The notes beneath the pieces were generated by a model. That model was not told the origin of the DNA and searched no databases. It worked only from the letters and a program-made list of their open reading frames with translations. The translations under genes and the position numbers were made by a program. From a virus: a stretch of DNA of 33,182 nucleotides. Shown piece after piece: positions 1 to 33,182 of this stretch (positions are counted from its first letter, which is position 1; every line of letters starts with the position of its first letter). The DNA lies in the IMG/VR virus record IMGVR_UViG_3300047157_000061; one strand, given 5' to 3'.

Positions 1-145
1 GTCTAACTTATCTGCGTCTGCTAACTCAGAGTACGTGAGATTGGAAGCAAGTAAGGATATACTTGATCGAGCTGGAATAAAACAGGATCAATCGGACACA
101 AAGTCACTAGGTAATGCTATCCAAGTTAACATAGACCTTGGGTAA
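1..145 (+). CDS. terS: 3' end of terS (partial, duplicate copy inside the terminal repeat)
   Basis: Identical to 32957..33101. It ends at the same TAA (143-145) and encodes ...SNLSASANSEYVRLEASKDILDRAGIKQDQSDTKSLGNAIQVNIDLG. Confidence 0.75.
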   Translation, partial: SNLSASANSEYVRLEASKDILDRAGIKQDQSDTKSLGNAIQVNIDLG

Positions 146-226
146 ATTATGGTGCAGTGCTGTGTATACAAGATAAAGTTAAATATAGGTAGGGGTTCAA
201 AAGTTACAGATTAATTAAGAGCAACA
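1..226. repeat. Terminal direct repeat, left copy; exact duplicate of 32957..33182 (assembly overlap of a circular or circularly permuted genome, or terminal redundancy)
   Basis: Base-by-base reading: gtctaacttatctgcgtctgctaactcagag...ttaattaagagcaaca occurs at 1-226 and again at 32957-33182 with no mismatch that I could see. Confidence 0.9.
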
Positions 227-8755: not shown

Positions 8756-10942
8756 GTGGCAAAAACTAGAGCAATACTAAGACAATTAAAAACAACTTTT
8801 CAGGCTGGTGAATTAGATCCTATGATGAACTTGCGTAGTGATACTTCTGCCTATACAAATGGAGCAAAGAAAATGCAAAATGTATCTTTGTTTTCACAAG
8901 GTGGTTTTAAAAGACGTAATGGTACAAAACGATATGCAAGTTTACCTGGCAATGCTAGACTAGTAGGTTTTGATTTTGATGATAATGAACAGTATATATG
9001 TGCATTTAGTAATACAAGAGTAGATATATATTATTTAGGAAACGATAGTTTAACGCAAACTATTACATCATGTCCTTGGGGAACATCTATTTTATTTGAA
9101 ATGCAATTTACACAAGCTGGTGATACTATGATAATTACACATCCTAGTATGGCAACACAAGTTATAACAAGAACAAGTCTTACAGCATTTAGTAGATCTA
9201 ACTTTGCTTTTGATACTGATACAGAAAATGTATACCAACCATATTATAAATTTGCATCTAGTGCAGTAACATTATCATCAAGTGGTACTACAGGATCAGT
9301 AACAATTACATCTAGTGCAGATCATTTTAATGCTGATTATGTAGGTTCTTATATTAAAATAGAAAATACTACTTTAGAAATTACAGGACACACAAATGCA
9401 ACTACAGTTACAGCTACAATAGAAGGCACACTGAAAAAAAAATTAATCAATGATCCTTTTACTACAGCAGTAGGTACAAAAACAATTACTGTAAATGATC
9501 CTTTACATGGATTAACAAATAATGCAAGTGTTACTATAGCTGGTGCTAATACAGTAGATACAATTACTGCTGGTAATATTAACGGAGCAAGAACCATAAC
9601 AGTATTAAATGAAGATAGTTATAGTTTTACTGCTGGTGGATCTACTAATGCAGATAATACTGATGCTGGTGGTGGAACTGCTGTATTTATTACAAGTCCA
9701 AATCAAGCAAATACAGAATGGCAAGAACAAGTTTTTAGCACAGTAAGAGGTTATCCAGCTTCAGCAACATTTCATGATGGTAGGCTGTGGTTTGGTGGTT
9801 CATCTAGTTTACCAGATTGGTTATGGGCATCTAAAGTAGATCAGTATTTTAATTTTGATCTTGGTGAATCAGATGATGCAGATAGCATACAATCTTCTAT
9901 TGGTGCATCACAAGTAGCTGACATAAGACATTTACAATCTAATAGACACTTACTTATATTTACAGCTAATGGAGAATTTTTTGCTCCACAAGCTACACAA
10001 TCTGTTTTAACTCCTAGTAATTTTACAGCACGTAGACAAACTACACATGGATGTAGTCATGTAAATATAAAAACATTAGAAGGTGGTGCTTTATTTGTAC
10101 AAAAGCATGGTAGAGCAGTAAGAGAATTATTATTTACAGATTTAGAATTATCTTACTCAGCTACAAACATTAGTGTATTAGCTAGTCATTTAATAAATAC
10201 TCCAATAGATATGACTATATTACAAGGTACAGCAGAACGACCAGAATCTTATGCAATATTTATAAACACAGATGGTACTGCTGGTGTGTTTCATGCAGTT
10301 CGTTCTGAAAAATTAGCTGGTTGGACAGAATGGAAAACAACAACAGGTGCTACATTTAAAAGTATAGAAGCAGTAGGAAGTAGATTATTCTTTACAGTAT
10401 ATAGGAATTCAACTTATTATATAGAAGAAATGGGAACAGAAGAAAATACATTAGATCATTCAAGTACTTTTACAATAGGAAGTGCTGGTACTACATTTAC
10501 AGGACTAAGTAATTATGCTAGTAAAACTGTAAATGTACGTAGTGGTGATTATCATATGGGTACATTTGCAGTAACTAGTGGTGGTGTATTAGAACTGTCT
10601 TCTGGATTTGATACTACAACTATTACAGTAGGATATGATTATGATGTAGAAGTAGAAACTATGCCAGTAGAAACAGTAGTAACAACTGGTTCTTTACAAG
10701 GTAAACCTAAAAGAATTAGTAAAGTAGTATTAGGTTTAAACTCTGCATTAGCTACTACTATATCAAATAACAAACTTACACTTAGACAAGTAACAGATGA
10801 TTTATCAAATGCACCTACACCAATAACAGGTAAAAGAGATTTCTATTTGTTAGGTTATAATAAAGATGCGACAGTTAGTATAACACAATCAGATCCTTTA
10901 CCAGTAAGAATAACAGGATTAATTATGGAGTATATGTTTTAA
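8756..10942 (+). CDS. Tail tubular protein B / nozzle (T7 gp12-like)
   Basis: 728 aa with a GTG start 5 nt after GGAG. It is Thr/Ser/Gly-rich and looks beta-rich. The position is syntenic with T7 gp12. Confidence 0.6.
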   Translation: MAKTRAILRQLKTTFQAGELDPMMNLRSDTSAYTNGAKKMQNVSLFSQGGFKRRNGTKRYASLPGNARLVGFDFDDNEQYICAFSNTRVDIYYLGNDSLTQTITSCPWGTSILFEMQFTQAGDTMIITHPSMATQVITRTSLTAFSRSNFAFDTDTENVYQPYYKFASSAVTLSSSGTTGSVTITSSADHFNADYVGSYIKIENTTLEITGHTNATTVTATIEGTLKKKLINDPFTTAVGTKTITVNDPLHGLTNNASVTIAGANTVDTITAGNINGARTITVLNEDSYSFTAGGSTNADNTDAGGGTAVFITSPNQANTEWQEQVFSTVRGYPASATFHDGRLWFGGSSSLPDWLWASKVDQYFNFDLGESDDADSIQSSIGASQVADIRHLQSNRHLLIFTANGEFFAPQATQSVLTPSNFTARRQTTHGCSHVNIKTLEGGALFVQKHGRAVRELLFTDLELSYSATNISVLASHLINTPIDMTILQGTAERPESYAIFINTDGTAGVFHAVRSEKLAGWTEWKTTTGATFKSIEAVGSRLFFTVYRNSTYYIEEMGTEENTLDHSSTFTIGSAGTTFTGLSNYASKTVNVRSGDYHMGTFAVTSGGVLELSSGFDTTTITVGYDYDVEVETMPVETVVTTGSLQGKPKRISKVVLGLNSALATTISNNKLTLRQVTDDLSNAPTPITGKRDFYLLGYNKDATVSITQSDPLPVRITGLIMEYMF

Positions 10943-11550
10943 TGTGTGACCCAGTATCAGCGGCAGTAGCGGCAACAGCAATAACTGCTGGCTCTCAAAT
11001 ATATCAAGGAAAAGTTCAAGCAAGAATGGCAGAAAACAGTAATGCTTTGATGAAGTTTCAAACATCTGAACAAATTACTGAAGTAAAAGAACAAAAAAGA
11101 ATAAATGCAATTCAAGCTAGAGAAGAAGAAATAGAAAGAAGAAGACTGCTAGAACAAGATTTATCAGCTTTAACTGCTTATAATCGAGGTTTTGCTTCAT
11201 CAAGTAAAGACAATATTAAATCAACTGCACAAGAATTATTTGGAGCAGATGTAGCAACTAATAGATTTAATTTAACTATAGCTAATACACAAGCTGATAG
11301 ACAAATAGGTGTATTAACTGCTCAAGGAAATATGCCTAGTTATGCTAGTTCTATAAGAACTGCATCCTACATAAATGCAACAGCTACAGCTTTTAGTGGA
11401 TATAGTAATTATCTATCTGTTAAAACTCCAACACCTACTAAACCTACAGTTACAAGTAGTTACACTCCTGGTGGTGTTACAAATGTAGCTAGTCGTGGAC
11501 CAGGGAAAACAACAGGTTTTGCAAATAAAGGATATACATTTAAAGGATAA
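10942..11550 (+). CDS. Internal virion / ejection protein candidate (gp14 position)
   Basis: 202 aa with an ATGTG/TAATG-type overlap with the preceding gene. It has a hydrophobic N-terminus (MCDPVSAAVAATAITAG) followed by a coiled-coil-like segment. The call rests on position only. Confidence 0.4.
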   Translation: MCDPVSAAVAATAITAGSQIYQGKVQARMAENSNALMKFQTSEQITEVKEQKRINAIQAREEEIERRRLLEQDLSALTAYNRGFASSSKDNIKSTAQELFGADVATNRFNLTIANTQADRQIGVLTAQGNMPSYASSIRTASYINATATAFSGYSNYLSVKTPTPTKPTVTSSYTPGGVTNVASRGPGKTTGFANKGYTFKG

Positions 11551-11552
11551 TA

Positions 11553-14500
11553 ATGGTAACAAGATATAAAGATACAAGAAGAATAAGAACAGCAGATAAA
11601 CCAAAGGTAAACTATAATATATCTATAGATACTACTGGTCAAGAATCTATAGCTAAATCTTTAATACAAGCTAGCCAAACTATAAGTAATGTATATATGC
11701 AAAAAGCAAAAGAAAATGCATTAAGGCAAGCACAACTAGATCAAAGTCAAGCACCGATAGAAATGATTGATGGAGTTCCTCAGTATAAAGAAATGTCAGA
11801 AGGAGGAACTATATACAATGATGCTTACAATCAAGCATCAAGAGTAGCTTATGAAAATTCTTTAGAAAATTCTGTTACTTCTAAAATTAATAGAATAAAA
11901 AAAGAATTTTATGAAGATCCAATAAAAAGACAAGATGTAAATAATTTAGCTAGTATGTTAGATAATGAATTAGCACCAATGAGAGATAATGTTTCTCCTC
12001 AATTTTTAAACAAATTTGATATTATAGTTGGAGATAAAGTAAATCCTTTATTATCTAGTGTTACAAAAGAAAATGCAAATTTAGCTAGAAGCAATAAAGT
12101 ATCTGCATTAACACAACAAAATAAAAGATTAGAAAGTGAATTAATGGCAATGTTACCTGTAAGAGATAAAAATGGTAAATTAATATTATCTGATAAATAT
12201 TATCAGAAAAGAGAAGAATTAAAACAAAATATTATTACCACTAATATGATATCTAATGGTACGTATTCTATTGAAAATATAAATCAAATAGATGCAAATT
12301 TATTAGGATTTGTTGAATATAATAAACTAGCATATAAACTTAACGAAACAAATGAATTAGGAGAACCTAAAGTAACAATAGGTCAATTAGATACAATAAG
12401 ACAAATTTTAAATGGTGATCCTAATAAAAAAGTAGTACTTGATGATGGAACTATTTTTGACAAAAAGAATGTAGATAAATTATATCCATCAAATGAAATA
12501 AAAAATTCAGTAAGAGAAAAATTTAATACTTATTATAATCAAAGATTAAGAGGAGATACATCATATGGTAATGCTGTAACTGAAATGGATAATATAGTAA
12601 CAGAATATAATATTTTAATTGATGAAAAAAAATTATCTATTGATGAAATAAGAGAACAAAATAAAATTTTTGAAGGTAAGATAAATGATATTGAAGGTGG
12701 CGATAGTATTAAACAAAAGGCACAACTTAATCAAGCAAAAAATAAAGCTATAAATATAATTAAAAGTAAAACGTCAAGTATAACTTCAGACATAAATGAA
12801 AATAATTATAAAAGTAATTTAAAAAATGTAGCTAAAGATGTACAAATAAATTTAGGAACAGATTATAATTCTTTTCAAGAAGCAGTAAAGAATTATATAC
12901 TATTAGATTCTGACTCTACTGAAGCTAAACAATTACAAACAGTAAATGAACAAACTTTTGAAACAACAAAAAAATTTATTACTGAAGCATCAGTGCAAAA
13001 TGTAGATATAATACAAGAATTAATAGAAATAGTAGAAGGTAACAAAACATTAGTACCAGGAGAAATACTAGGTCATACAAGAAAAGATTTATATAATAAA
13101 TTAAAGCCACTTAAACCATTTATTTTAAATGAATTAAAAGCATTTAAATCTACAAATAAACAACCAAGTGCTAGATCTATATCAAATAAAAAAATAATAA
13201 GTAATATTACAGCTAGTGAACCAAATAGGTTATCTGCATTAAGTACTTCAAGTAGTGATGTAAATAATTTAATAAATGATTTAATAAGCGACAATGAAGT
13301 ATCAAATACAGATATAGAAGTATTTACAAAGTTAATAGAAAATGGTTATAAAGCTACTCAATTAGGTGTAATAATAAAAGATACACTAGCTACAGGCAAT
13401 GTAGATAATTTAAATAAAATAGTAGTTCCTTTAATAGATGCAATAGATAAAGCAAAACAGCCATTAGAAAAAATAAATTTAAGTAATGTAAATTATGGTT
13501 TTGTAAAATCATTTATGACTGTTAGTCCAAATCAAAGACAAGATGTAATGACAGCATATGTTAATTTTAAATCGGATAAAACTAGTGATAGAATTAAATT
13601 GCAATTAGCTACTATATTTAATGAATTTAATGATACACCTTCAGATTTAGCAAATGTAGTAAAAAAAAGTGAGAATAAAGTTTTTCAAGATGTAGTAGCA
13701 GAAGTATACAATGATTTATTTAATAAAATAGATGAAGAAAAAAGACATAAATTAAAAGATGCTATAGAAAAACAATTACATTTTACTTTATTTAATAATG
13801 TTTTAAGAAATGAAACTATTGAAATAAAAAAAAATGATTTTAAAAATGAAATAAAGGATATATTAGAAATAACTACAGATGGTGATATGCCATCTTATAA
13901 ATTAAATGATGATGCAGTTACTAATGTAAATGAAGATTTTACTTATACACATAATGTAATTACAAATAATCAAGGAGAACAAATAGAAGCTGATATTAAC
14001 AATCCATATGCACCAATAATAAAATCTGCTGAAAGATTCGGTGAGTATTTTGGTTCAGATAGATTTCATTTTGGTGCTATACTTACAACATTAAATGTAT
14101 ATCAACAAATAAAAGAACAAAATGGAACTATAAATTTAAGTGAAGCTGGTAGAAAACAAAACACTTGGAAAGGTAAACTTTCAGAAATAAGTAGAGGTAT
14201 AGGTATAAATAAAGTAAAAGAAGAAACTGCTTTTGAAGGGATAGTAGGAGATGTAATAGGAAATCAAACAGAAAATAATAACATGGTTGATGCTTTTACT
14301 ATAGATGGTATGCCAGTATTACCAGAAAATTTAAAATATGTATCTAATCCAAACTTAGCAAGTAATGAAAGATATGTAAAAGTAACTTTTAGAACAGATG
14401 GACAAGATGAAGTTTTACCTATAATGAATAACAACAATGAACCAATAGTTATTACAATACCTGAAAATAAATCTGATATATTAAGGTATACTTCAAATCA

Positions 14501-15017
14501 ATATTCATTTGAAAAAGAAAGAATACTAAATGTAAACCCTGAAAAAGCTAAGTTTATACAAGAAAACATAGATATGCTAAATACTAATTCTGGTGCAAAT
14601 AATATAGCATTAAATATTGATAACGCAAAAATAGTTAATAAAAAATTAAATCCAGTAAAAAAATTATTACCATTATCAAATAATAAATATGGAGATATTT
14701 TAGTAAAAGAAAGAAATATTATAAATCATAATAGGTCATTTTATACATTATCTATAGAAGCAAATGAAAGTTTTAATGAATCTTATTCTGATTATATAAT
14801 AGAAAAAAATAATAAGTTTTACATACTACCTAGTAGAGAAATACAAAAAGTAGAAGATACAAATATATATAAAATATTTCCTATAAGTGAAAAAGAATCT
14901 TTAAAAAAATATTTTAATATAAATAAAATGCCAGTATATGATTCTAAAGAACAAGCTAATGAAGGTTTGAAAAGAATTAATAGAGTTAAAATGGAAGATA
15001 AAAAACTTATACAATGA
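11553..15017 (+). CDS. Large internal virion / ejection protein candidate (gp15 position)
   Basis: 1154-aa uninterrupted ORF, extremely Asn/Lys/Ile/Glu-rich. It is syntenic with podovirus internal core proteins. Confidence 0.5.
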   Translation: MVTRYKDTRRIRTADKPKVNYNISIDTTGQESIAKSLIQASQTISNVYMQKAKENALRQAQLDQSQAPIEMIDGVPQYKEMSEGGTIYNDAYNQASRVAYENSLENSVTSKINRIKKEFYEDPIKRQDVNNLASMLDNELAPMRDNVSPQFLNKFDIIVGDKVNPLLSSVTKENANLARSNKVSALTQQNKRLESELMAMLPVRDKNGKLILSDKYYQKREELKQNIITTNMISNGTYSIENINQIDANLLGFVEYNKLAYKLNETNELGEPKVTIGQLDTIRQILNGDPNKKVVLDDGTIFDKKNVDKLYPSNEIKNSVREKFNTYYNQRLRGDTSYGNAVTEMDNIVTEYNILIDEKKLSIDEIREQNKIFEGKINDIEGGDSIKQKAQLNQAKNKAINIIKSKTSSITSDINENNYKSNLKNVAKDVQINLGTDYNSFQEAVKNYILLDSDSTEAKQLQTVNEQTFETTKKFITEASVQNVDIIQELIEIVEGNKTLVPGEILGHTRKDLYNKLKPLKPFILNELKAFKSTNKQPSARSISNKKIISNITASEPNRLSALSTSSSDVNNLINDLISDNEVSNTDIEVFTKLIENGYKATQLGVIIKDTLATGNVDNLNKIVVPLIDAIDKAKQPLEKINLSNVNYGFVKSFMTVSPNQRQDVMTAYVNFKSDKTSDRIKLQLATIFNEFNDTPSDLANVVKKSENKVFQDVVAEVYNDLFNKIDEEKRHKLKDAIEKQLHFTLFNNVLRNETIEIKKNDFKNEIKDILEITTDGDMPSYKLNDDAVTNVNEDFTYTHNVITNNQGEQIEADINNPYAPIIKSAERFGEYFGSDRFHFGAILTTLNVYQQIKEQNGTINLSEAGRKQNTWKGKLSEISRGIGINKVKEETAFEGIVGDVIGNQTENNNMVDAFTIDGMPVLPENLKYVSNPNLASNERYVKVTFRTDGQDEVLPIMNNNNEPIVITIPENKSDILRYTSNQYSFEKERILNVNPEKAKFIQENIDMLNTNSGANNIALNIDNAKIVNKKLNPVKKLLPLSNNKYGDILVKERNIINHNRSFYTLSIEANESFNESYSDYIIEKNNKFYILPSREIQKVEDTNIYKIFPISEKESLKKYFNINKMPVYDSKEQANEGLKRINRVKMEDKKLIQ

Positions 15018-19553: not shown

Positions 19554-21629
19554 ATGGCTATATTAGTTAACGATACGACTCCCAGAAACCAGTACACTGC
19601 ATCTGCTGGGCAAACAGTATTTGCTTACTCATTTGAAATATTTGAAGTAACAGATATTAAGGTGTTTAAAGGATCAACTCTTTTAACTTTTGCAAGTAGT
19701 CCATCAGGTGTTACACAATATTCTGTATCTGGTGCTGGTACAACTGGTGGTGGTAATATTACTCTCGGAGGTGGTGCTACTGTAAATGATATTTATACTA
19801 TAGTACGTGACATACCAGTTAAAAGAACAACAGACTTTCCGTTATCTGGACCATTTGTTATTGACAGTTTAAATACTGATCTTGATAAAATGATTGGAAT
19901 GATGGGTGAAAGAGAAGATGAGATATCAAGGTCAATAAGACTAAAAGATGAAGACCCTTCAGCAACATTAACATTACCATTAAAAGCAGATAGAGCAAGT
20001 AAAGTACTTACATTTAGTAGTACAGGTAATGTAGAAACTTCTATTACTGCAACAGATGTAAGCACAGTTGCTGGTATATCAAGTAACATAACTACTGTAA
20101 GTGGTATAGCTAGTAATGTAACTACTGTTGCTGGTATTTCTAGTAACGTAACTACAGTAGCTGGTAAATCATCAGAGGTTACTTCAGTGGCGGCAGTTGC
20201 TAGTTTAATAACTTCTGACTTTGTAAGTGATTTAAATACATTAGCAGTTACAGATGTAATAAATGACATCAATACATTAGCAACTAGTGATATAGTAAGT
20301 GACTTAAATACATTAGCAACATCAGATATTGTTAGTGATTTAAATACTTTGGCAACAAGTGATATTGTTTCTGATATAAACACTCTTGCTACAAGTGATA
20401 TAGTAAGTGATTTAAATACACTTGCTACAAGTGATTTTGTATCAGATTTAAATACAATAGCTACTTCAACAAACGTAAATAATATTGCAACAGTTGCTGG
20501 CAATAACTCAAACATAAACACAGTAGCTGGTAACAATTCTAATATTTCTACTGTAGCTGGAATATCAAGTAATGTTTCTACTGTTGCTGGTATTACAAGT
20601 AATATTGCTACAGTAGCTGGTATATCAGCAAATATAACTACAGTTGCTGGTAACAATGCAAACATAACTACATTAGCTGGCATAAGTACAGATGTAACAT
20701 CTCTTGCAAGTGCTCTTGCATCTACTACAAATTATGCTGTAACAGTTGCTAGTGGTACATTGTATGGTGGTGGTTCTGGTAATGTATTTTATTTAGATGG
20801 TACAGGTAATCCAGCTATTACTTTAACAAGAGGTAATACATATGTATTTGATCAAAGTAATTCTAGTAATAGTGGACATCCTATAGCATTTAGAACAAGT
20901 ACAGATGCAAGTTATACTACAGGTGTAACTTCTACTGGTACTCCTGGAAATGCTGGAGCAAAAACTACGTTTGTTGTACCTTCAGATGCACCAGCTTCGT
21001 TAAAGTATTATTGTACCTCACATGGAAATGGTATGGGTAATGTTATTACTACAAATACATCAAATATAAATGTTGTTGCTAGTAATATAGGAGAAGTAAA
21101 TAGTTTTGCACAAAGATATAGGGTAGCTAGTAGTGATCCTACGGCATCATTAGATGAAGGTGATCTAGCTTATAATAGCACAGCTAATGTTCTTAAATAT
21201 TATAATGGATCAGCTTGGGTAACTATAGTTGCTGGTTCTTTAACAGATGTAGTACAAGATGGAACTCCTCAATTAGGTGGAAATCTTGATGTTCAGACAA
21301 ATTCAATAATATCTACATCTAATAGAGATATTAATATTACACCAAATGGATCTGGTAATGTAGTTTTAGACGGAATAAGTTATCCTTCTAGTGATGGATC
21401 AGCAGACCAAGTTCTTAAAACTGATGGTTCTGGAACAATTAGTTTTGGTACAGTACAAGCAAGTGAGTTGACAACACAAGGAAATTACTTTAGTAATTAT
21501 AATAGTGTAAGTAGTGATGTTACATCAACAACAGCCAGCACAAAGAACGCATTTCTCTTTGGACCGATAACTGTAAGTGGTAGTTCTACTTGGACTGTAA
21601 GTGGTAATGGCACATTAGAAATATTTTAA
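19554..21629 (+). CDS. Tail fibre protein with repeat arrays and a cupredoxin-like domain
   Basis: 691 aa. It has tandem 10-aa and 12-aa repeat arrays, a plastocyanin-like segment (GHPIAF...YYCTSHGNGMG) and a C-terminal LGGNLDV...ITPNGSG...DGS..QVLKTDGSG module shared with the next gene. Confidence 0.75.
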   Translation: MAILVNDTTPRNQYTASAGQTVFAYSFEIFEVTDIKVFKGSTLLTFASSPSGVTQYSVSGAGTTGGGNITLGGGATVNDIYTIVRDIPVKRTTDFPLSGPFVIDSLNTDLDKMIGMMGEREDEISRSIRLKDEDPSATLTLPLKADRASKVLTFSSTGNVETSITATDVSTVAGISSNITTVSGIASNVTTVAGISSNVTTVAGKSSEVTSVAAVASLITSDFVSDLNTLAVTDVINDINTLATSDIVSDLNTLATSDIVSDLNTLATSDIVSDINTLATSDIVSDLNTLATSDFVSDLNTIATSTNVNNIATVAGNNSNINTVAGNNSNISTVAGISSNVSTVAGITSNIATVAGISANITTVAGNNANITTLAGISTDVTSLASALASTTNYAVTVASGTLYGGGSGNVFYLDGTGNPAITLTRGNTYVFDQSNSSNSGHPIAFRTSTDASYTTGVTSTGTPGNAGAKTTFVVPSDAPASLKYYCTSHGNGMGNVITTNTSNINVVASNIGEVNSFAQRYRVASSDPTASLDEGDLAYNSTANVLKYYNGSAWVTIVAGSLTDVVQDGTPQLGGNLDVQTNSIISTSNRDINITPNGSGNVVLDGISYPSSDGSADQVLKTDGSGTISFGTVQASELTTQGNYFSNYNSVSSDVTSTTASTKNAFLFGPITVSGSSTWTVSGNGTLEIF
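20064..20213 (+). repeat. Tandem 30-nt (10-aa) coding repeats, about 5 copies (TVAGISSNIT type)
   Basis: Read directly: TVAGISSNIT TVSGIASNVT TVAGISSNVT TVAGKSSEVT SVAAVASLIT. Confidence 0.8.
20229..20480 (+). repeat. Tandem 36-nt (12-aa) coding repeats, 7 copies (DLNTLATSDIVS type)
   Basis: Read directly: DLNTLAVTDVIN DINTLATSDIVS DLNTLATSDIVS DLNTLATSDIVS DINTLATSDIVS DLNTLATSDFVS DLNTIATSTNVN. Confidence 0.85.
20490..20699 (+). repeat. Tandem 30-nt (10-aa) coding repeats, 7 copies (TVAGNNSNIN type)
   Basis: Read directly: TVAGNNSNIN TVAGNNSNIS TVAGISSNVS TVAGITSNIA TVAGISANIT TVAGNNANIT TLAGISTDVT. Confidence 0.85.
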
Positions 21630-21638
21630 GGAGTAAAT

Positions 21639-22766
21639 ATGGCAAGCACAATTAAAGTAGATAAAGTACGAGGAGCGGCTAGTACGGAAGTTAAGCTAGA
21701 TGGAAACTTAGATGTAAATGGAAACAGTATTGTATCTGCATCTGATGGCAATATAGCTATAACTCCAAATGGTTCAGGTAAAGTAATAGTAGATGGATTA
21801 TCATTACCTACTGCTGATGGTACTAATGGACAATTTTTAAAGACAGATGGATCAGGAAACATATCCTTTGGAAGTGTATCATCTGATGTTAGTGGAGATT
21901 CAAGTCCTCAACTAGGTGGTGATTTAGATGTTAATGGCAACTCGATTGTATCAACATCAAATGCAAGTATAAACATTACACCCAATGGTACAGGAGATGT
22001 AAATTTAGGTGCTGATACAGTAATGGTTGGTGACAATAATGTTAACGCAATAGTTACTACTCAAGGTACAGGTGATCTTACACTTAGCACAAACTCAGGT
22101 ACAAATTCAGGAACAATAGCAATAGCTGATGGAGTAAATGGTGACATATCAGTTACACCAAATGGTACTGGTAAAGTTATTCTTGATGGATTATCTCATC
22201 CAACATCAGATGGTTCAGCTAATCAAGTTTTACAAACAGATGGTTCTGGTAATTTAAGTTTTGCTACTCCTGGAGGTGGTAAAATATTACAAGTAGTGAC
22301 TGTTCAAAAAAATGATACTTTTTCTACATCAAGTACTTCAGATACAACAGTTACAGGATTAACGTTAGATATTACTCCGTCAGCAACTACAAGTAAAATT
22401 GCTATATTTTTAAATTTAACAGCTTGTATGGGTCATTATACTGATTCAAATGGTCAAAATAGTAATAACAGAGTAGATATTTTTAGGGGATCAACAAATA
22501 TTGTTGAAGATCAAATTACTGGTCAAGGAAGTAGAACAGGAACTTTATCTCAACATGGATACAGAGGTGCTGGTGGTAGTGTTGAAGGATTAGCTTATAG
22601 TTTAATAGATTCACCTAGTTCAACATCTCAACAAACTTATACTGTAAAAGTAAAAGCTAGAAGCAGTACTATTTTTGTAAATAAACATTCAGATGATTCA
22701 AGCAATAACGCATCACACACACCTAGAGGTATATCAACTTTAACTTGTATGGAGATAGGAGCATAA
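21639..22766 (+). CDS. Second tail fibre / receptor-binding protein
   Basis: 375 aa. The N-terminal two-thirds consist of 2-3 copies of the module also found at the C-terminus of the first fibre. The C-terminal ~150 aa are unique. AAGGAG is upstream. Confidence 0.7.
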   Translation: MASTIKVDKVRGAASTEVKLDGNLDVNGNSIVSASDGNIAITPNGSGKVIVDGLSLPTADGTNGQFLKTDGSGNISFGSVSSDVSGDSSPQLGGDLDVNGNSIVSTSNASINITPNGTGDVNLGADTVMVGDNNVNAIVTTQGTGDLTLSTNSGTNSGTIAIADGVNGDISVTPNGTGKVILDGLSHPTSDGSANQVLQTDGSGNLSFATPGGGKILQVVTVQKNDTFSTSSTSDTTVTGLTLDITPSATTSKIAIFLNLTACMGHYTDSNGQNSNNRVDIFRGSTNIVEDQITGQGSRTGTLSQHGYRGAGGSVEGLAYSLIDSPSSTSQQTYTVKVKARSSTIFVNKHSDDSSNNASHTPRGISTLTCMEIGA

Positions 22767-23095
22767 TGATAGAAAGAGCAATACATAAAATTAATCCAAA
22801 AGCAGAATTTGTTATAAATGCTGATAATATTGATAATATAGAATGGGTAAATGGTACTACACCCATATCAAAATCTGATATAGAAGCAAAATATTCAGAA
22901 GTAGAATTAGATATAGCACTTGATGGTTTAAGAAGAATAAGGAATGAATTATTATCTATGACTGATTGGTATGCTTTATCAGATGTTACTATGTCTGATG
23001 ATATGAAAACTTATAGACAAAAGCTTAGAGATATTACTGCTGGTTTAGATACTGTTGCTAAAGTAAATAAAGTTACAATGCCAACTAAACCATAA
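22766..23095 (+). CDS. Tail fibre assembly chaperone-like protein
   Basis: The motif RNELLSMTDWYALSDVTMSDDMKTYRQKLRDIT matches the pattern I recall for phage tail assembly chaperones. I chose the internal ATG at 22766 (TAATG overlap, GGAGATAGGA upstream) over the ORF-track start at 22745. Confidence 0.55.
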   Translation: MIERAIHKINPKAEFVINADNIDNIEWVNGTTPISKSDIEAKYSEVELDIALDGLRRIRNELLSMTDWYALSDVTMSDDMKTYRQKLRDITAGLDTVAKVNKVTMPTKP

Positions 23096-32729: not shown

Positions 32730-33101
32730 ATGGACAGCAAAACCACACAACTCACAACAAGACAACAGGCATTTATTGATAACCTATTAACAAATGGTGG
32801 TACTGCAACACAATGTGCGATCAAAGCTGGATACAGTCCCAAATCAGCCAAGGTCGAAGCAAGTCGCTTACTCAAGCATGACAAGGTGTTGAAGCAACTA
32901 CAGACACAAGCAATGAAGACACTCGGATACAGATCAATACAAGCATTGGATACAGTGTCTAACTTATCTGCGTCTGCTAACTCAGAGTACGTGAGATTGG
33001 AAGCAAGTAAGGATATACTTGATCGAGCTGGAATAAAACAGGATCAATCGGACACAAAGTCACTAGGTAATGCTATCCAAGTTAACATAGACCTTGGGTA
33101 A
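32730..33101 (+). CDS. terS: Terminase small subunit
   Basis: 123 aa. LTTRQQAFIDNLLTNGGTATQCAIKAGYSPKSAKVEASRLLKHDKV is the classic terminase small subunit HTH signature. The 3' third lies in the terminal repeat. Confidence 0.8.
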   Translation: MDSKTTQLTTRQQAFIDNLLTNGGTATQCAIKAGYSPKSAKVEASRLLKHDKVLKQLQTQAMKTLGYRSIQALDTVSNLSASANSEYVRLEASKDILDRAGIKQDQSDTKSLGNAIQVNIDLG

Positions 33102-33182
33102 ATTATGGTGCAGTGCTGTGTATACAAGATAAAGTTAAATATAGGTAGGGGTTCAAAAGTTACAGATTAATTAAGAGCAACA
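32957..33182. repeat. Terminal direct repeat, right copy (exact duplicate of 1..226)
   Basis: See the left copy. Confidence 0.9.

What the first reader, a model, noticed from the sequence alone, without database searches (positions are those of the whole stretch)
20730..21050. Cupredoxin (plastocyanin-like) domain with a complete type-1 copper ligand set inside the tail fibre
Residues ~393-499 of the fibre read NPAITLTRGNTYVFDQSNSSNSGHPIAFRTS...TTFVVPSDAPASLKYYCTSHGNGMGNVITT. This aligns by eye with plastocyanin: ...[21 protein letters not shown]...[21 protein letters not shown]. All four blue-copper ligands are present: His (codon at 20877), Cys (21012), His (21021) and Met (21033). The Cys-x2-His-x3-Met spacing is intermediate between amicyanin (x2) and plastocyanin (x4). 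A potentially metal-binding, redox-type fold in a receptor-binding fibre is unusual. It sits between the repeat shaft and the distal module. It could be a repurposed adhesion fold, or it could be a genuine copper site on the virion surface.
Basis: partly seen in the sequence, partly recalled or inferred. Interest (0 to 1): 0.7.

Follow-up and report, generated by a model that had tools for sequence, protein, structure and literature searches.

The report
Blue-copper-type domain in phage tail fibre
The tail fibre of this marine phage carries an optional ~114-residue domain with the fold and the four metal-binding residues of small blue copper proteins such as plastocyanin, and the same unnamed domain is common on ocean phages and on surface proteins of ocean microbes, so these particles may carry copper.

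Summary
Copper binding is untested.

- **Ligand set.** Fibre residues 389-502 (nt 20718-21059) contain His442, Cys487, His490 and Met494 at exactly the codons reported. These are the only Cys and the only two His in the 691-aa protein.
- **Fold.** AlphaFold gives a confident model (pLDDT 92). Its PDB matches are almost all cupredoxin domains.
- **Conservation.** Down to 27% identity, the only invariant columns are the His, Cys and His. Met is kept in 25 of 26 sequences, with one Gln.
- **Coupled loss.** Across 344 domain copies the three equatorial ligands are kept together (226) or lost together (94).
- **Family size and range.** The family has about 9,800 clusters at 50% identity and no fitting Pfam model. 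It occurs in 295 phage genomes, all marine (cyanophages, pelagiphages, OM43 phages). It also occurs in exported lipoproteins of marine bacteria and archaea.
- **Optional cassette.** Near-identical fibres exist without the domain.

Best reading: an accessory, surface-exposed cupredoxin with a type-1 metal site. It probably stabilises the fibre or aids adhesion rather than carrying electrons. No paper linking cupredoxins to tail fibres was found.

The parts
19554..21629 (+). Tail fibre gene (691 aa), listed as 'hypothetical protein' in public databases
   Evidence: ORF. PHROG tail and tail-fibre families 1640, 21412 and 30742. It lies in a T7-like structural module: terminase, portal, capsid, tail tube A/B and internal virion proteins. 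Database name.
19554..19892 (+). N-terminal tail-attachment domain (aa 1-113)
   Evidence: PHROG 1640 'tail protein' matches residues 5-113. It is 80-97% identical in related IMG/VR fibres. A related fibre on a Pelagibacteraceae SAG hits Pfam PF03906, the T7 tail fibre N-terminal domain.
20054..20707 (+). Repeat shaft: 10-residue (30-nt) repeats at 20054-20221 and 20480-20707, and 12-residue (36-nt) repeats at 20205-20464
   Evidence: the repeat finder families D1 and D2. Tandem Repeats Finder.
20718..21059 (+). Cupredoxin cassette (aa 389-502), the subject of the finding
   Evidence: Family HMM envelope covers residues 394-503. The cassette is cleanly present or absent against the 583-aa orthologues L081 and L084-L089. 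AF2 pLDDT 92.3. Foldseek hits are cupredoxins.
20877..20879 (+). His442, the N-terminal equatorial ligand, two residues before strand 4
   Evidence: Invariant in A1 and A2. Aligns with plastocyanin His37 and amicyanin His53.
21012..21014 (+). Cys487, the thiolate ligand at the end of strand 7 and the only Cys in the protein
   Evidence: Invariant in A2. Aligns with plastocyanin Cys84 and amicyanin Cys92.
21021..21023 (+). His490, the second equatorial ligand, in the loop between strands 7 and 8
   Evidence: Invariant in A2. Aligns with plastocyanin His87 and amicyanin His95.
21033..21035 (+). Met494, the axial ligand at the start of the last strand
   Evidence: Kept in 25 of 26 sequences in A2, with Gln in cyanophage P-RSM6. 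Of 226 intact copies, Met lies at His+3 in 191 and at His+4 in 23.
21060..21233 (+). Conserved post-cassette fibre segment (aa 503-560: SNINVVASNIGEVNSFAQRYRV...KYYNGSAWVTI)
   Evidence: PHROG 13518 matches residues 508-557. The segment is present in fibres with and without the cassette and in the Pelagibacteraceae SAG fibre L038.
21234..21629 (+). Distal part of the fibre, including a 115-nt module (21337-21451) that recurs in the next gene
   Evidence: PHROG 21412 and 30742 tail fibre. Repeat family D4.
21639..22766 (+). Second fibre-like gene (375 aa) that shares the 'ITPNGSG.V.LDG...DGS..Q.L.TDGSG' module with the distal part of the fibre
   Evidence: translation. Repeat family D4 copies at 21760-21874 and 22153-22267. 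PHROG 677 and 31104.
22745..23095 (+). Tail-fibre assembly or chaperone-like gene (116 aa, TTG start)
   Evidence: PHROG 4912 'tail fiber assembly' and 4697 'tail assembly chaperone'.

Best explanation
Residues 389-502 of the fibre are a true single-domain cupredoxin: a Greek-key beta-sandwich carrying a type-1 'blue copper' ligand set (His442, Cys487, His490, Met494). It is inserted as a self-contained cassette between the last shaft repeat and the distal part of a T7-like tail fibre of a marine podovirus. The nearest cultured relatives infect Pelagibacter and OM43.

Shown:
- the fold;
- the ligand set and its placement on the fold;
- its conservation;
- its optional presence in otherwise near-identical fibres;
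- its wide occurrence in marine phage fibre and baseplate proteins and in exported proteins of marine bacteria and archaea.

Inferred:
- Each monomer, so three per trimeric fibre, holds one metal ion, most likely copper.
- The metal pins the Cys-x2-His-x3-Met loop to the sandwich and makes a rigid, stable knob.
- By analogy with plastocyanin topology, both chain ends lie at the pole opposite the metal site, so the metal-site face would point away from the fibre axis.
- The domain acts as an accessory surface module. It helps first-contact adhesion to the host envelope, or stabilises the fibre in seawater. It is not an electron carrier and not a core assembly element.

My confidence by step: cupredoxin fold about 0.9; functional metal site about 0.7; the metal is copper about 0.5; the role is adhesion or stability about 0.4.
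For: Fold. The AF2 model has pLDDT 92.3 and pTM 0.84. The Foldseek PDB top 50 are nearly all cupredoxin domains, with E from 3e-5 and probability 1.0.

Ligand placement. His442 lies just before strand 4, Cys487 ends strand 7, His490 is in the 7-8 loop, and Met494 starts strand 8. This matches plastocyanin and amicyanin, and all four ligands are in register in phmmer and hhalign alignments.

Conservation.
- In 26 sequences at 27-74% identity, the only invariant columns are His, Cys and His. Met is kept in 25 of 26; the exception is Gln, a known natural axial ligand.
- Of 344 copies, 226 keep all three equatorial ligands, 94 keep none, and only 24 keep one or two. Independent loss would predict 110 and 11 for all and none.
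- All 25 copies in IMG/VR relatives and 55 of 56 in genome loci are intact.
- The fibre has no Cys or His other than the ligands.
- dN/dS of the cassette is 0.16-0.35.

Links to classical cupredoxins.
- Multi-copy relatives pass the Pfam PF00127 (plastocyanin/azurin) whole-protein cut-off.
- Small 150-162-aa members carry a lipobox or signal peptide, and JGI names two of them 'plastocyanin'.
- Cellular homologues are exported lipoproteins.

Accessory role. 53 of 71 orthologous fibres lack the domain. The 583-aa forms are up to 97% identical at the N-terminus and differ by a clean excision.
Against: - No metal was measured.
- Pfam cupredoxin models do not hit the window domain, and a family profile finds no cupredoxin in PDB sequences.
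- TM-scores to solved cupredoxins are only about 0.5.
- Model coordinates could not be read, so the ligand geometry was not measured.
- Phage fibres fold in the host cytoplasm, where free copper is very scarce, whereas classical cupredoxins are loaded after export (general knowledge). The virion domain could therefore be empty or hold zinc.
- About one third of copies in the family have lost the ligands and still persist, so the fold alone has some use.
- Fusion to unrelated domains (PEBP, cadherin, collagen, RTX) looks more like a binding module than a redox centre.
Confidence: 0.6

Rival explanations
1. Metal-free adhesion fold (pseudo-cupredoxin). The domain is only a beta-sandwich decoration, like the Ig-like domains on many phage proteins. 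The ligand residues would be inherited baggage, or would serve packing, and the virion carries no metal.
For: About one third of copies in the family lack the ligands. The fibre works without the cassette. The domain is fused to unrelated extracellular domains, like a binding module. Cytoplasmic assembly makes copper loading hard (general knowledge).
Against: His, Cys and His are the only invariant columns down to 27% identity. Ligands are kept or lost as a set. A lone, invariant Cys in a protein meant for oxygenated seawater is hard to explain without a metal. All 25 close relatives and 55 of 56 genome copies are intact.
Confidence: 0.17
2. Same site, different metal. The His2-Cys-Met site holds zinc or another cytoplasm-available ion as a purely structural clamp, as zinc and iron do in the T4 gp12 and gp37 fibres.
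For: The fibre is assembled in the cytoplasm. Type-1 sites accept Zn, Co and Ni in vitro (general knowledge). Metal ions on phage fibres have precedent (T4 gp37 iron, discussed in the Ferrojan Horse literature).
Against: The exported cellular members, some named plastocyanin, and the Met-to-Gln and Met-to-Val axial variants follow the pattern of natural blue-copper variation. A soft thioether axial ligand is typical of copper rather than zinc sites (general knowledge).
Confidence: 0.13
3. Redox-active centre on the virion. The copper site exchanges electrons with a host surface component, or with dissolved species, as part of adsorption, triggering or chemistry on the cell envelope.
For: The complete type-1 ligand set is the electron-transfer design. 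The nearest Pfam family, PF25489, is named after At5g54830, which I recall as a cytochrome b561/DOMON protein; this recollection was not checked.
Against: No redox partner is encoded nearby. The cassette is optional. Fusion partners such as PEBP, cadherin and collagen are not redox proteins. Many copies have lost the site.
Confidence: 0.08
4. Chance motif. The four residues and the look-alike alignment are coincidental, in a low-complexity fibre.
For: There is no Pfam hit, and the single-sequence PDB hits are non-significant (E 0.4-1).
Against: None of 200,000 shuffles gave the pattern. The model is a confident cupredoxin-like fold. About 9,800 family clusters conserve the site.
Confidence: 0.01

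Closest known systems
Amicyanin, plastocyanin and pseudoazurin (single-domain type-1 cupredoxins; Pfam PF00127)
   Same: About 100-residue Greek-key sandwich. His before strand 4, and Cys-x2-His-x(2-4)-Met in the last loop. The family's usual loop, C-x2-H-x2-M, equals amicyanin's. All four ligands align. Small exported single-domain members exist.
   Different: Sequence similarity is marginal: hhalign probability 19-55%, and no PF00127 hit for the window domain. There is an extra N-terminal hairpin. The domain is embedded in a virion fibre with no signal peptide. No known redox partner.
Cyanophage PetE plastocyanin (auxiliary metabolic gene)
   Same: A phage-encoded cupredoxin with the same ligand set. 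It is carried by many of the same cyanophages: ACG-2014d, Syn1, S-RIM2, S-RIM14 and P-SSM2.
   Different: PetE is a free-standing protein of about 107 aa, a close copy of host plastocyanin that is taken to act in photosynthetic electron transport. The fibre domain is a different lineage. tblastn with plastocyanin finds one place per genome and not the fibre copy. The fibre domain sits inside structural proteins.
Pfam PF25489 'At5g54830-like domain'
   Same: The only Pfam family that family members reach. P0040 scores 34.8 bits against a cut-off of 27. Four of 26 A2 members match at E<1, and P0139, P0335 and P0343 also match.
   Different: The window domain itself does not match. I found no published description of this Pfam domain's structure or metal binding.
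Stellacyanin and phytocyanins, and the copper-less early-nodulin-like proteins
   Same: They show natural axial-ligand variation (Gln) and whole-site loss within one cupredoxin family (general knowledge). The same occurs here: Gln in P-RSM6, Val in P0343, and about one third of copies without ligands.
   Different: Those are plant cell-wall proteins. No specific sequence relationship was tested.
Ig-like, FN3 and BIG2 accessory domains on phage structural proteins
   Same: A beta-sandwich module found on tail fibres, baseplates and other virion proteins. It is present or absent among close relatives and spread by recombination.
   Different: Those domains have no conserved metal site. Here the metal ligands are the most conserved feature.
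Metal sites in T4 fibres (gp37 iron, gp12 zinc) and the 'Ferrojan Horse' hypothesis
   Same: Metal ions bound by fibre residues. The idea is that marine virions hold a share of a scarce trace metal (papers found).
   Different: Those ions sit on the trimer axis, bound by His from three chains (general knowledge). Here each monomer has its own complete site in a globular domain, and the likely metal is copper.

Membership tests
Cupredoxin superfamily, type-1 (blue) copper domain | Greek-key beta-sandwich of about 8 strands | tested here: met
   The AF2 model has pLDDT 92.3 and nine strands (eight plus an N-terminal hairpin extension). Foldseek PDB hits are nearly all cupredoxin domains, with E from 3e-5, probability 1.0 and TM about 0.5.
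Cupredoxin superfamily, type-1 (blue) copper domain | Ligand set: His upstream, plus Cys-x(n)-His-x(m)-Met in the loop between the last two strands | tested here: met
   His442, Cys487, His490 and Met494. They are in register with plastocyanin and amicyanin ligands.
Cupredoxin superfamily, type-1 (blue) copper domain | Ligands conserved among homologues | tested here: met
   They are the only invariant columns in A2. 226 of 344 copies are intact, with all-or-none loss. 25 of 25 and 55 of 56 copies are intact in related loci.
Cupredoxin superfamily, type-1 (blue) copper domain | Significant match to a curated cupredoxin sequence model (Pfam PF00127, PF13473; NCBIfam amicyanin) | tested here: inconclusive
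   The window domain has no hit at E<=10. One A2 member hits PF00127 at E 0.12. Multi-copy relatives P0139 and P0145 reach 23.5 and 22.3 bits against a cut-off of 21.2, but no single stretch passes. Amicyanin TIGR02657 matches at E 0.28. hhalign gives P 1.2e-4, probability 55%.
Cupredoxin superfamily, type-1 (blue) copper domain | Binds one copper, with an intense band near 600 nm and narrow EPR hyperfine splitting | not testable with these tools
   This needs protein expression, UV-vis, EPR and ICP-MS.
Cupredoxin superfamily, type-1 (blue) copper domain | Ligand side chains within bonding distance in three dimensions | not tested
   The tools return no model coordinates. Only secondary-structure positions were available.
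Pfam PF25489 At5g54830-like domain | Score above the gathering cut-off (27 bits) | tested here: not met
   The window domain and the whole fibre have no hit. Relatives P0040 (34.8 bits) and P0139 (29.5 bits) pass. The window domain therefore belongs to a wider family that this model covers only in part.
Accessory (dispensable) surface domains of phage structural proteins | Present or absent among otherwise orthologous virion proteins | tested here: met
   18 of 71 orthologous fibres have the domain and 53 lack it. The 583-aa fibres are 97% identical at the N-terminus and differ by clean excision of aa 389-502.
Accessory (dispensable) surface domains of phage structural proteins | Recurs in different virion proteins of unrelated phages | tested here: met
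   It occurs in tail fibres, gp9-like connectors, gp7- and gp10-like baseplate proteins and 'virion structural proteins' of cyanomyoviruses, pelagiphages and OM43 phages. It also occurs in SU10-like podovirus modules.

The most novel reading that the evidence does not exclude
Virions of the ocean's dominant phages (T4-like cyanophages, pelagiphages, OM43 phages) and surface lipoproteins of dominant bacterioplankton (SAR86, SAR92, SAR116, Flavobacteria, Marine Group II archaea) display working blue-copper centres on their outer surfaces. This would be an unrecognised family of extracellular copper proteins. It would make adsorption or particle stability depend on copper, and it would place a measurable share of organically bound marine copper on viruses and cell surfaces, a copper counterpart of the 'Ferrojan Horse' idea for iron.
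Probability: 0.3. Interest if true: 0.85.

Novelty: new variant of a known kind. Interest (0 to 1): 0.72.

Why it matters
Cupredoxins are known as soluble or membrane-tethered electron carriers and as domains of copper oxidases. A version built into virus tail fibres and baseplates, with its copper ligands as the best-conserved residues, is a new setting for the fold. I found no paper in the searchable library that links cupredoxins or blue copper to tail fibres.

The family is large, about 9,800 clusters at 50% identity. No Pfam model fits it well. In the searches run here it appears only in marine lineages, including the phages of Prochlorococcus, Synechococcus and SAR11.

If the site binds copper, three questions become directly testable:
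- how these phages first touch their hosts;
- whether copper availability tunes infection in the sea;
- how much trace copper is held on viral particles.

The natural cassette-plus and cassette-minus fibre pairs provide a ready-made experiment.

Tried and rejected
- **Pfam and NCBIfam on the domain and the whole fibre.** No cupredoxin hit. This was not taken as refutation, because structure and conservation say otherwise.
- **Family profile A1 against PDB sequences.** Only chance 'YYC' matches to antibody chains.
- **megablast of the fibre gene against phage genomes.** No match.
- **Genome scan with the diverse alignment A2.** Repeated with the closer set A4, so that survey is biased to the 'FDQSDS / GTHxxGSEY' subfamily.
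- **Exhaustive search with A2.** Repeated with A3.
- **Stand-alone 118-aa homologues (P0004, P0013).** I considered these as free phage cupredoxins. They are probably split or truncated genes, because an overlapping upstream ORF is present in pilon-polished assemblies and the 223-aa forms share the sequence.
- **A recent duplicate of cyanophage petE.** Rejected. The two are only remotely related.
- **A catalytic Cys-His dyad.** Considered and dropped. The residues sit exactly at cupredoxin ligand positions, and Met/Gln co-varies with them.
- **Antisense ORF 19793..20683.** Treated as a by-product of the repeats.
- **Literature.** Searches for cupredoxin, blue copper or plastocyanin-like together with tail fibre or phage found nothing relevant.
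Full report
**1. What is in the window**

The window is a complete genome of about 33 kb with an exact 226-nt terminal repeat. It carries a T7-like structural module: large terminase, portal, major capsid protein, tail tube A and B, and large internal virion proteins. The tail tube B protein is most similar to Pelagibacter phage EXVC031P (40.7% amino-acid identity). The next closest are Methylophilales phage MEP301 and other pelagiphages. This is therefore a marine podovirus of the pelagiphage/OM43-phage kind.

ORF 19554..21629 (+, 691 aa) is the tail fibre. PHROG families for tail and tail-fibre proteins match its N-terminus and its C-terminal half. A second fibre-like gene and a fibre-assembly-like gene follow it. 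Public databases call the fibre protein 'hypothetical protein'.

**2.

- His442 at 20877
- Cys487 at 21012
- His490 at 21021
- Met494 at 21033

The spacing is Cys-x2-His-x3-Met. The comparison values are right: amicyanin has x2 and plastocyanin has x4.

Two facts make chance untenable. The whole 691-residue fibre contains one Cys and two His, and all three are the proposed equatorial ligands. None of 200,000 shuffles of the protein produced the pattern.

The domain follows the shaft, which is built of 10-residue and 12-residue repeats (nt 20054-20707). It precedes a conserved fibre segment and the distal part.

**3. It is a cupredoxin fold**

AlphaFold2, run on an alignment of 25 homologues, gave a confident model with mean pLDDT 92.3 and pTM 0.84. 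Foldseek against the PDB returned 34 matches at E <= 0.001. Nearly all of the top 50 are cupredoxin domains: copper nitrite reductases, CueO and other multicopper oxidases, two-domain laccases and rusticyanin. The best E is 3e-5, the probability is 1.0, and TM-scores are about 0.5. No phage structure appears among them, so no close relative has been solved.

In the model, the ligands sit where they do in classical cupredoxins:
- His442 lies two residues before strand 4.
- Cys487 ends strand 7.
- His490 is in the loop between strands 7 and 8.
- Met494 starts the last strand.

Sequence methods are weaker but agree.
- A single-sequence search of the PDB puts three plastocyanins among its seven hits, at E 0.4-1, with all four ligands aligned.
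- hhalign of the family against plastocyanin, amicyanin and a plastocyanin/PetE alignment gives P values of 1.4e-4, 1.2e-3 and 1.2e-4. The ligands are in register each time.
- Pfam cupredoxin models miss the window domain.
- Two multi-copy relatives exceed the PF00127 whole-protein cut-off.
- Four of 26 family members, and several relatives, match PF25489, the 'At5g54830-like domain'.

I could not read model coordinates, so ligand distances were not measured.

**4. The ligands are what the family conserves**

I collected homologues from three sources: the large protein database, 13 phage genomes and related loci.

- *Invariant columns.* The alignment has 26 sequences sharing 27-74% identity with the window. 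Its only invariant columns are the His, the Cys and the second His. Met is kept in 25 of 26. The exception is cyanophage P-RSM6, which has Gln, the axial ligand of stellacyanin. One small exported relative has Val.
- *Loop length.* The usual loop is C-x2-H-x2-M, as in amicyanin. The window's clade has one extra residue.
- *Family size.* An exhaustive profile search found 9,810 clusters at 50% identity with E <= 0.001. Of these, 6,196 have E <= 1e-10. Some proteins hold up to 26 tandem copies.
- *All-or-none retention.* I scored 344 copies from the 149 best representatives. Of these, 226 keep all three equatorial ligands, 94 keep none, and only 24 keep one or two. Independent loss would predict about 110 and 11. 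Of the intact copies, 214 have Met at His+3 or His+4.

This all-or-none behaviour is what a metal site shows. It also shows that ligand-less copies persist, mostly inside giant multi-copy proteins.

**5. Where else the domain occurs**

*Phages.* tblastn against 50,697 phage genomes found the domain in 295 records. All are marine:
- 282 Synechococcus or Prochlorococcus cyanophages
- Pelagibacter phages
- Methylophilales (OM43) phages
- a few uncultured marine phages

In those genomes it lies in tail fibres, in gp9-like 'baseplate wedge tail fiber connectors' (at the extreme C-terminus), in gp7- and gp10-like baseplate proteins and in 'virion structural proteins'. In metagenomic SU10-like podoviruses it forms the C-terminal half of a 224-aa protein that has a BppU-like N-terminus and sits in the tail module.

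*Cells.* A scan of one genome per prokaryotic species found 51 loci, all in marine lineages. On megabase-size contigs the domain is the C-terminal part of exported proteins:
- lipobox lipoproteins with a PEBP domain (SAR92 isolate H921), a cadherin domain (SAR86) or an HExxH region
- collagen-repeat proteins of Marine Group II archaea
- an RTX protein of SAR116
- a giant Ig-repeat protein of Flavobacteriaceae

The lipoboxes were read by eye. Small single-domain members of 150-162 aa also exist, with a lipobox or signal peptide. JGI names two of them 'plastocyanin'. The phage domain therefore belongs to a family whose cellular members look like ordinary exported small blue copper proteins, or like modules on surface proteins.

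One caveat: the genome scan used patterns from one subfamily, so 'marine only' describes these searches and is not proven for the whole family.

**6. The cassette is optional**

IMG/VR holds 331 relatives of the fibre. I could recognise 71 orthologues by their N-terminus. Of these, 18 carry the domain and 53 do not.

Fibres of 583 aa (for example L081 and L084-L089) are up to 97% identical to the window at the N-terminus and about 85% at the C-terminus. They lack exactly residues 389-502. In them, the last shaft repeat joins directly to 'SN(I/V)N.VASN..VN.FA.RYRV'.

Among the carriers, dN/dS of the cassette is 0.16-0.35, which indicates purifying selection. Its synonymous divergence is lower than that of the flanks, which suggests recent spread by recombination.

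The domain is therefore not needed to build a fibre. It is an add-on that selection maintains where it is present.

**7. How it most likely works**

*Shown:* fold, ligand set, ligand conservation, optional presence, and a surface or extracellular setting.

*Inferred:*
- One metal ion binds per domain.
- That metal is most likely copper. The Met/Gln/Val axial variation and the exported relatives follow blue-copper patterns.
- The metal ties the last loop to the sandwich and makes a rigid knob.
- In plastocyanin-type topology both chain ends lie opposite the metal site, so an in-line insertion would present the metal face outward.

I favour an accessory role in first-contact adhesion or in particle stability. 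The reasons are that the cassette is dispensable, that it recurs on many different virion proteins, and that in cells it is fused to unrelated extracellular domains, as a binding module would be.

The main doubt is metal loading. Fibres fold in the cytoplasm, where free copper is scarce. The site may therefore be empty or hold zinc until release, or indefinitely. A redox role cannot be excluded, but no neighbouring gene or fusion partner points that way.

**8. Comparison with known things, and novelty**

The domain meets the structural and ligand criteria of a type-1 cupredoxin. It fails or only borders on the curated sequence models. Copper binding cannot be tested here.

It is distinct from cyanophage PetE plastocyanin. 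PetE is a separate gene in 400 cyanophage genomes and is only remotely similar.

The domain behaves like the Ig-like accessory domains of phage proteins, but it has a conserved metal site. It recalls the iron and zinc sites of T4 fibres and the 'Ferrojan Horse' idea, but it is a self-contained site in each monomer.

Full-text searches found no paper that connects cupredoxins, blue copper or plastocyanin-like domains with tail fibres. Known viral plastocyanins are free metabolic proteins.

I rate it a new variant of a known kind: a familiar fold and site in an undescribed structural and ecological setting.

**9. Verdict**

The fold and the conserved site are solid. The metal identity and the function remain open. 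Interest is high for phage structural biology and for marine trace-metal biology. The score is tempered because the fold itself is classical and the decisive evidence, metal analysis, is experimental.

Noticed in passing
window 1-226 and 32957-33182: An exact 226-nt direct repeat lies at both ends of the window. The window is therefore a complete phage genome of about 32.96 kb, either with terminal repeats or assembled as a circle.
   Followed up: partly
window 21337-21451, 21760-21874, 22153-22267: A 115-nt module encoding 'ITPNGSG.V.LDG...DGS..Q.L.TDGSG' occurs once in the distal part of the fibre and twice in the next gene (21639-22766). The two fibre genes therefore share building blocks.
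   Followed up: partly
window 19793-20683 (- strand): A 296-aa antisense ORF lies inside the fibre's repeat shaft. It is most likely a by-product of the repeats and not a gene.
   Followed up: no
window 11553-15017 and 10942-11550: A 1,154-aa protein and a 202-aa protein in the internal-virion-protein position have no PHROG match at E <= 1e-5.
   Followed up: no
L081, L082, L084-L089 (IMG/VR), fibre ORFs of 583 aa: These fibres are near-identical to the window's but lack exactly the cupredoxin cassette. They carry two or three more 12-residue shaft repeats instead. They form natural cassette-plus and cassette-minus pairs with the window type.
   Followed up: yes
L011 (cyanophage P-RSM6 structural protein), domain residues 446-580 of the ORF: The axial Met is replaced by Gln (CHHHTGQG), as in stellacyanin. 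This copy also has extra His residues next to the site.
   Followed up: partly
L052 (SAR92 isolate H921), L050 (SAR86), L055 (Gammaproteobacteria), L047 and L044 (Marine Group II archaea), L025 (SAR116): Cellular exported proteins end in the same domain with intact ligands. Their other parts are lipobox plus PEBP, lipobox plus cadherin, lipobox plus an HExxH region, signal plus collagen repeats, and RTX plus DUF5648.
   Followed up: partly
P0137 (3,815 aa, 26 copies), P0138 (2,758 aa), P0141 and P0144: These giant proteins are made largely of tandem copies of the domain, and most copies have lost the ligands. Their source organisms are unknown.
   Followed up: no
P0040 (198 aa): This is a two-copy protein of the family. 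JGI labels it 'ribosomal protein L31', apparently because the C-x2-H region weakly resembles the L31 zinc motif. This looks like a mis-annotation.
   Followed up: partly
P0309 (259 aa): One family member has the domain fused to a Hint (intein-like) domain, PF13403.
   Followed up: no
window 20718-21059 compared with flanks, in L068, L069, L071 and L079: Synonymous divergence of the cassette (0.19-0.29) is lower than that of the N-terminal (0.70-0.96) and C-terminal (0.37-0.74) parts. This hints that the cassette was exchanged among these phages more recently than the rest of the fibre.
   Followed up: partly
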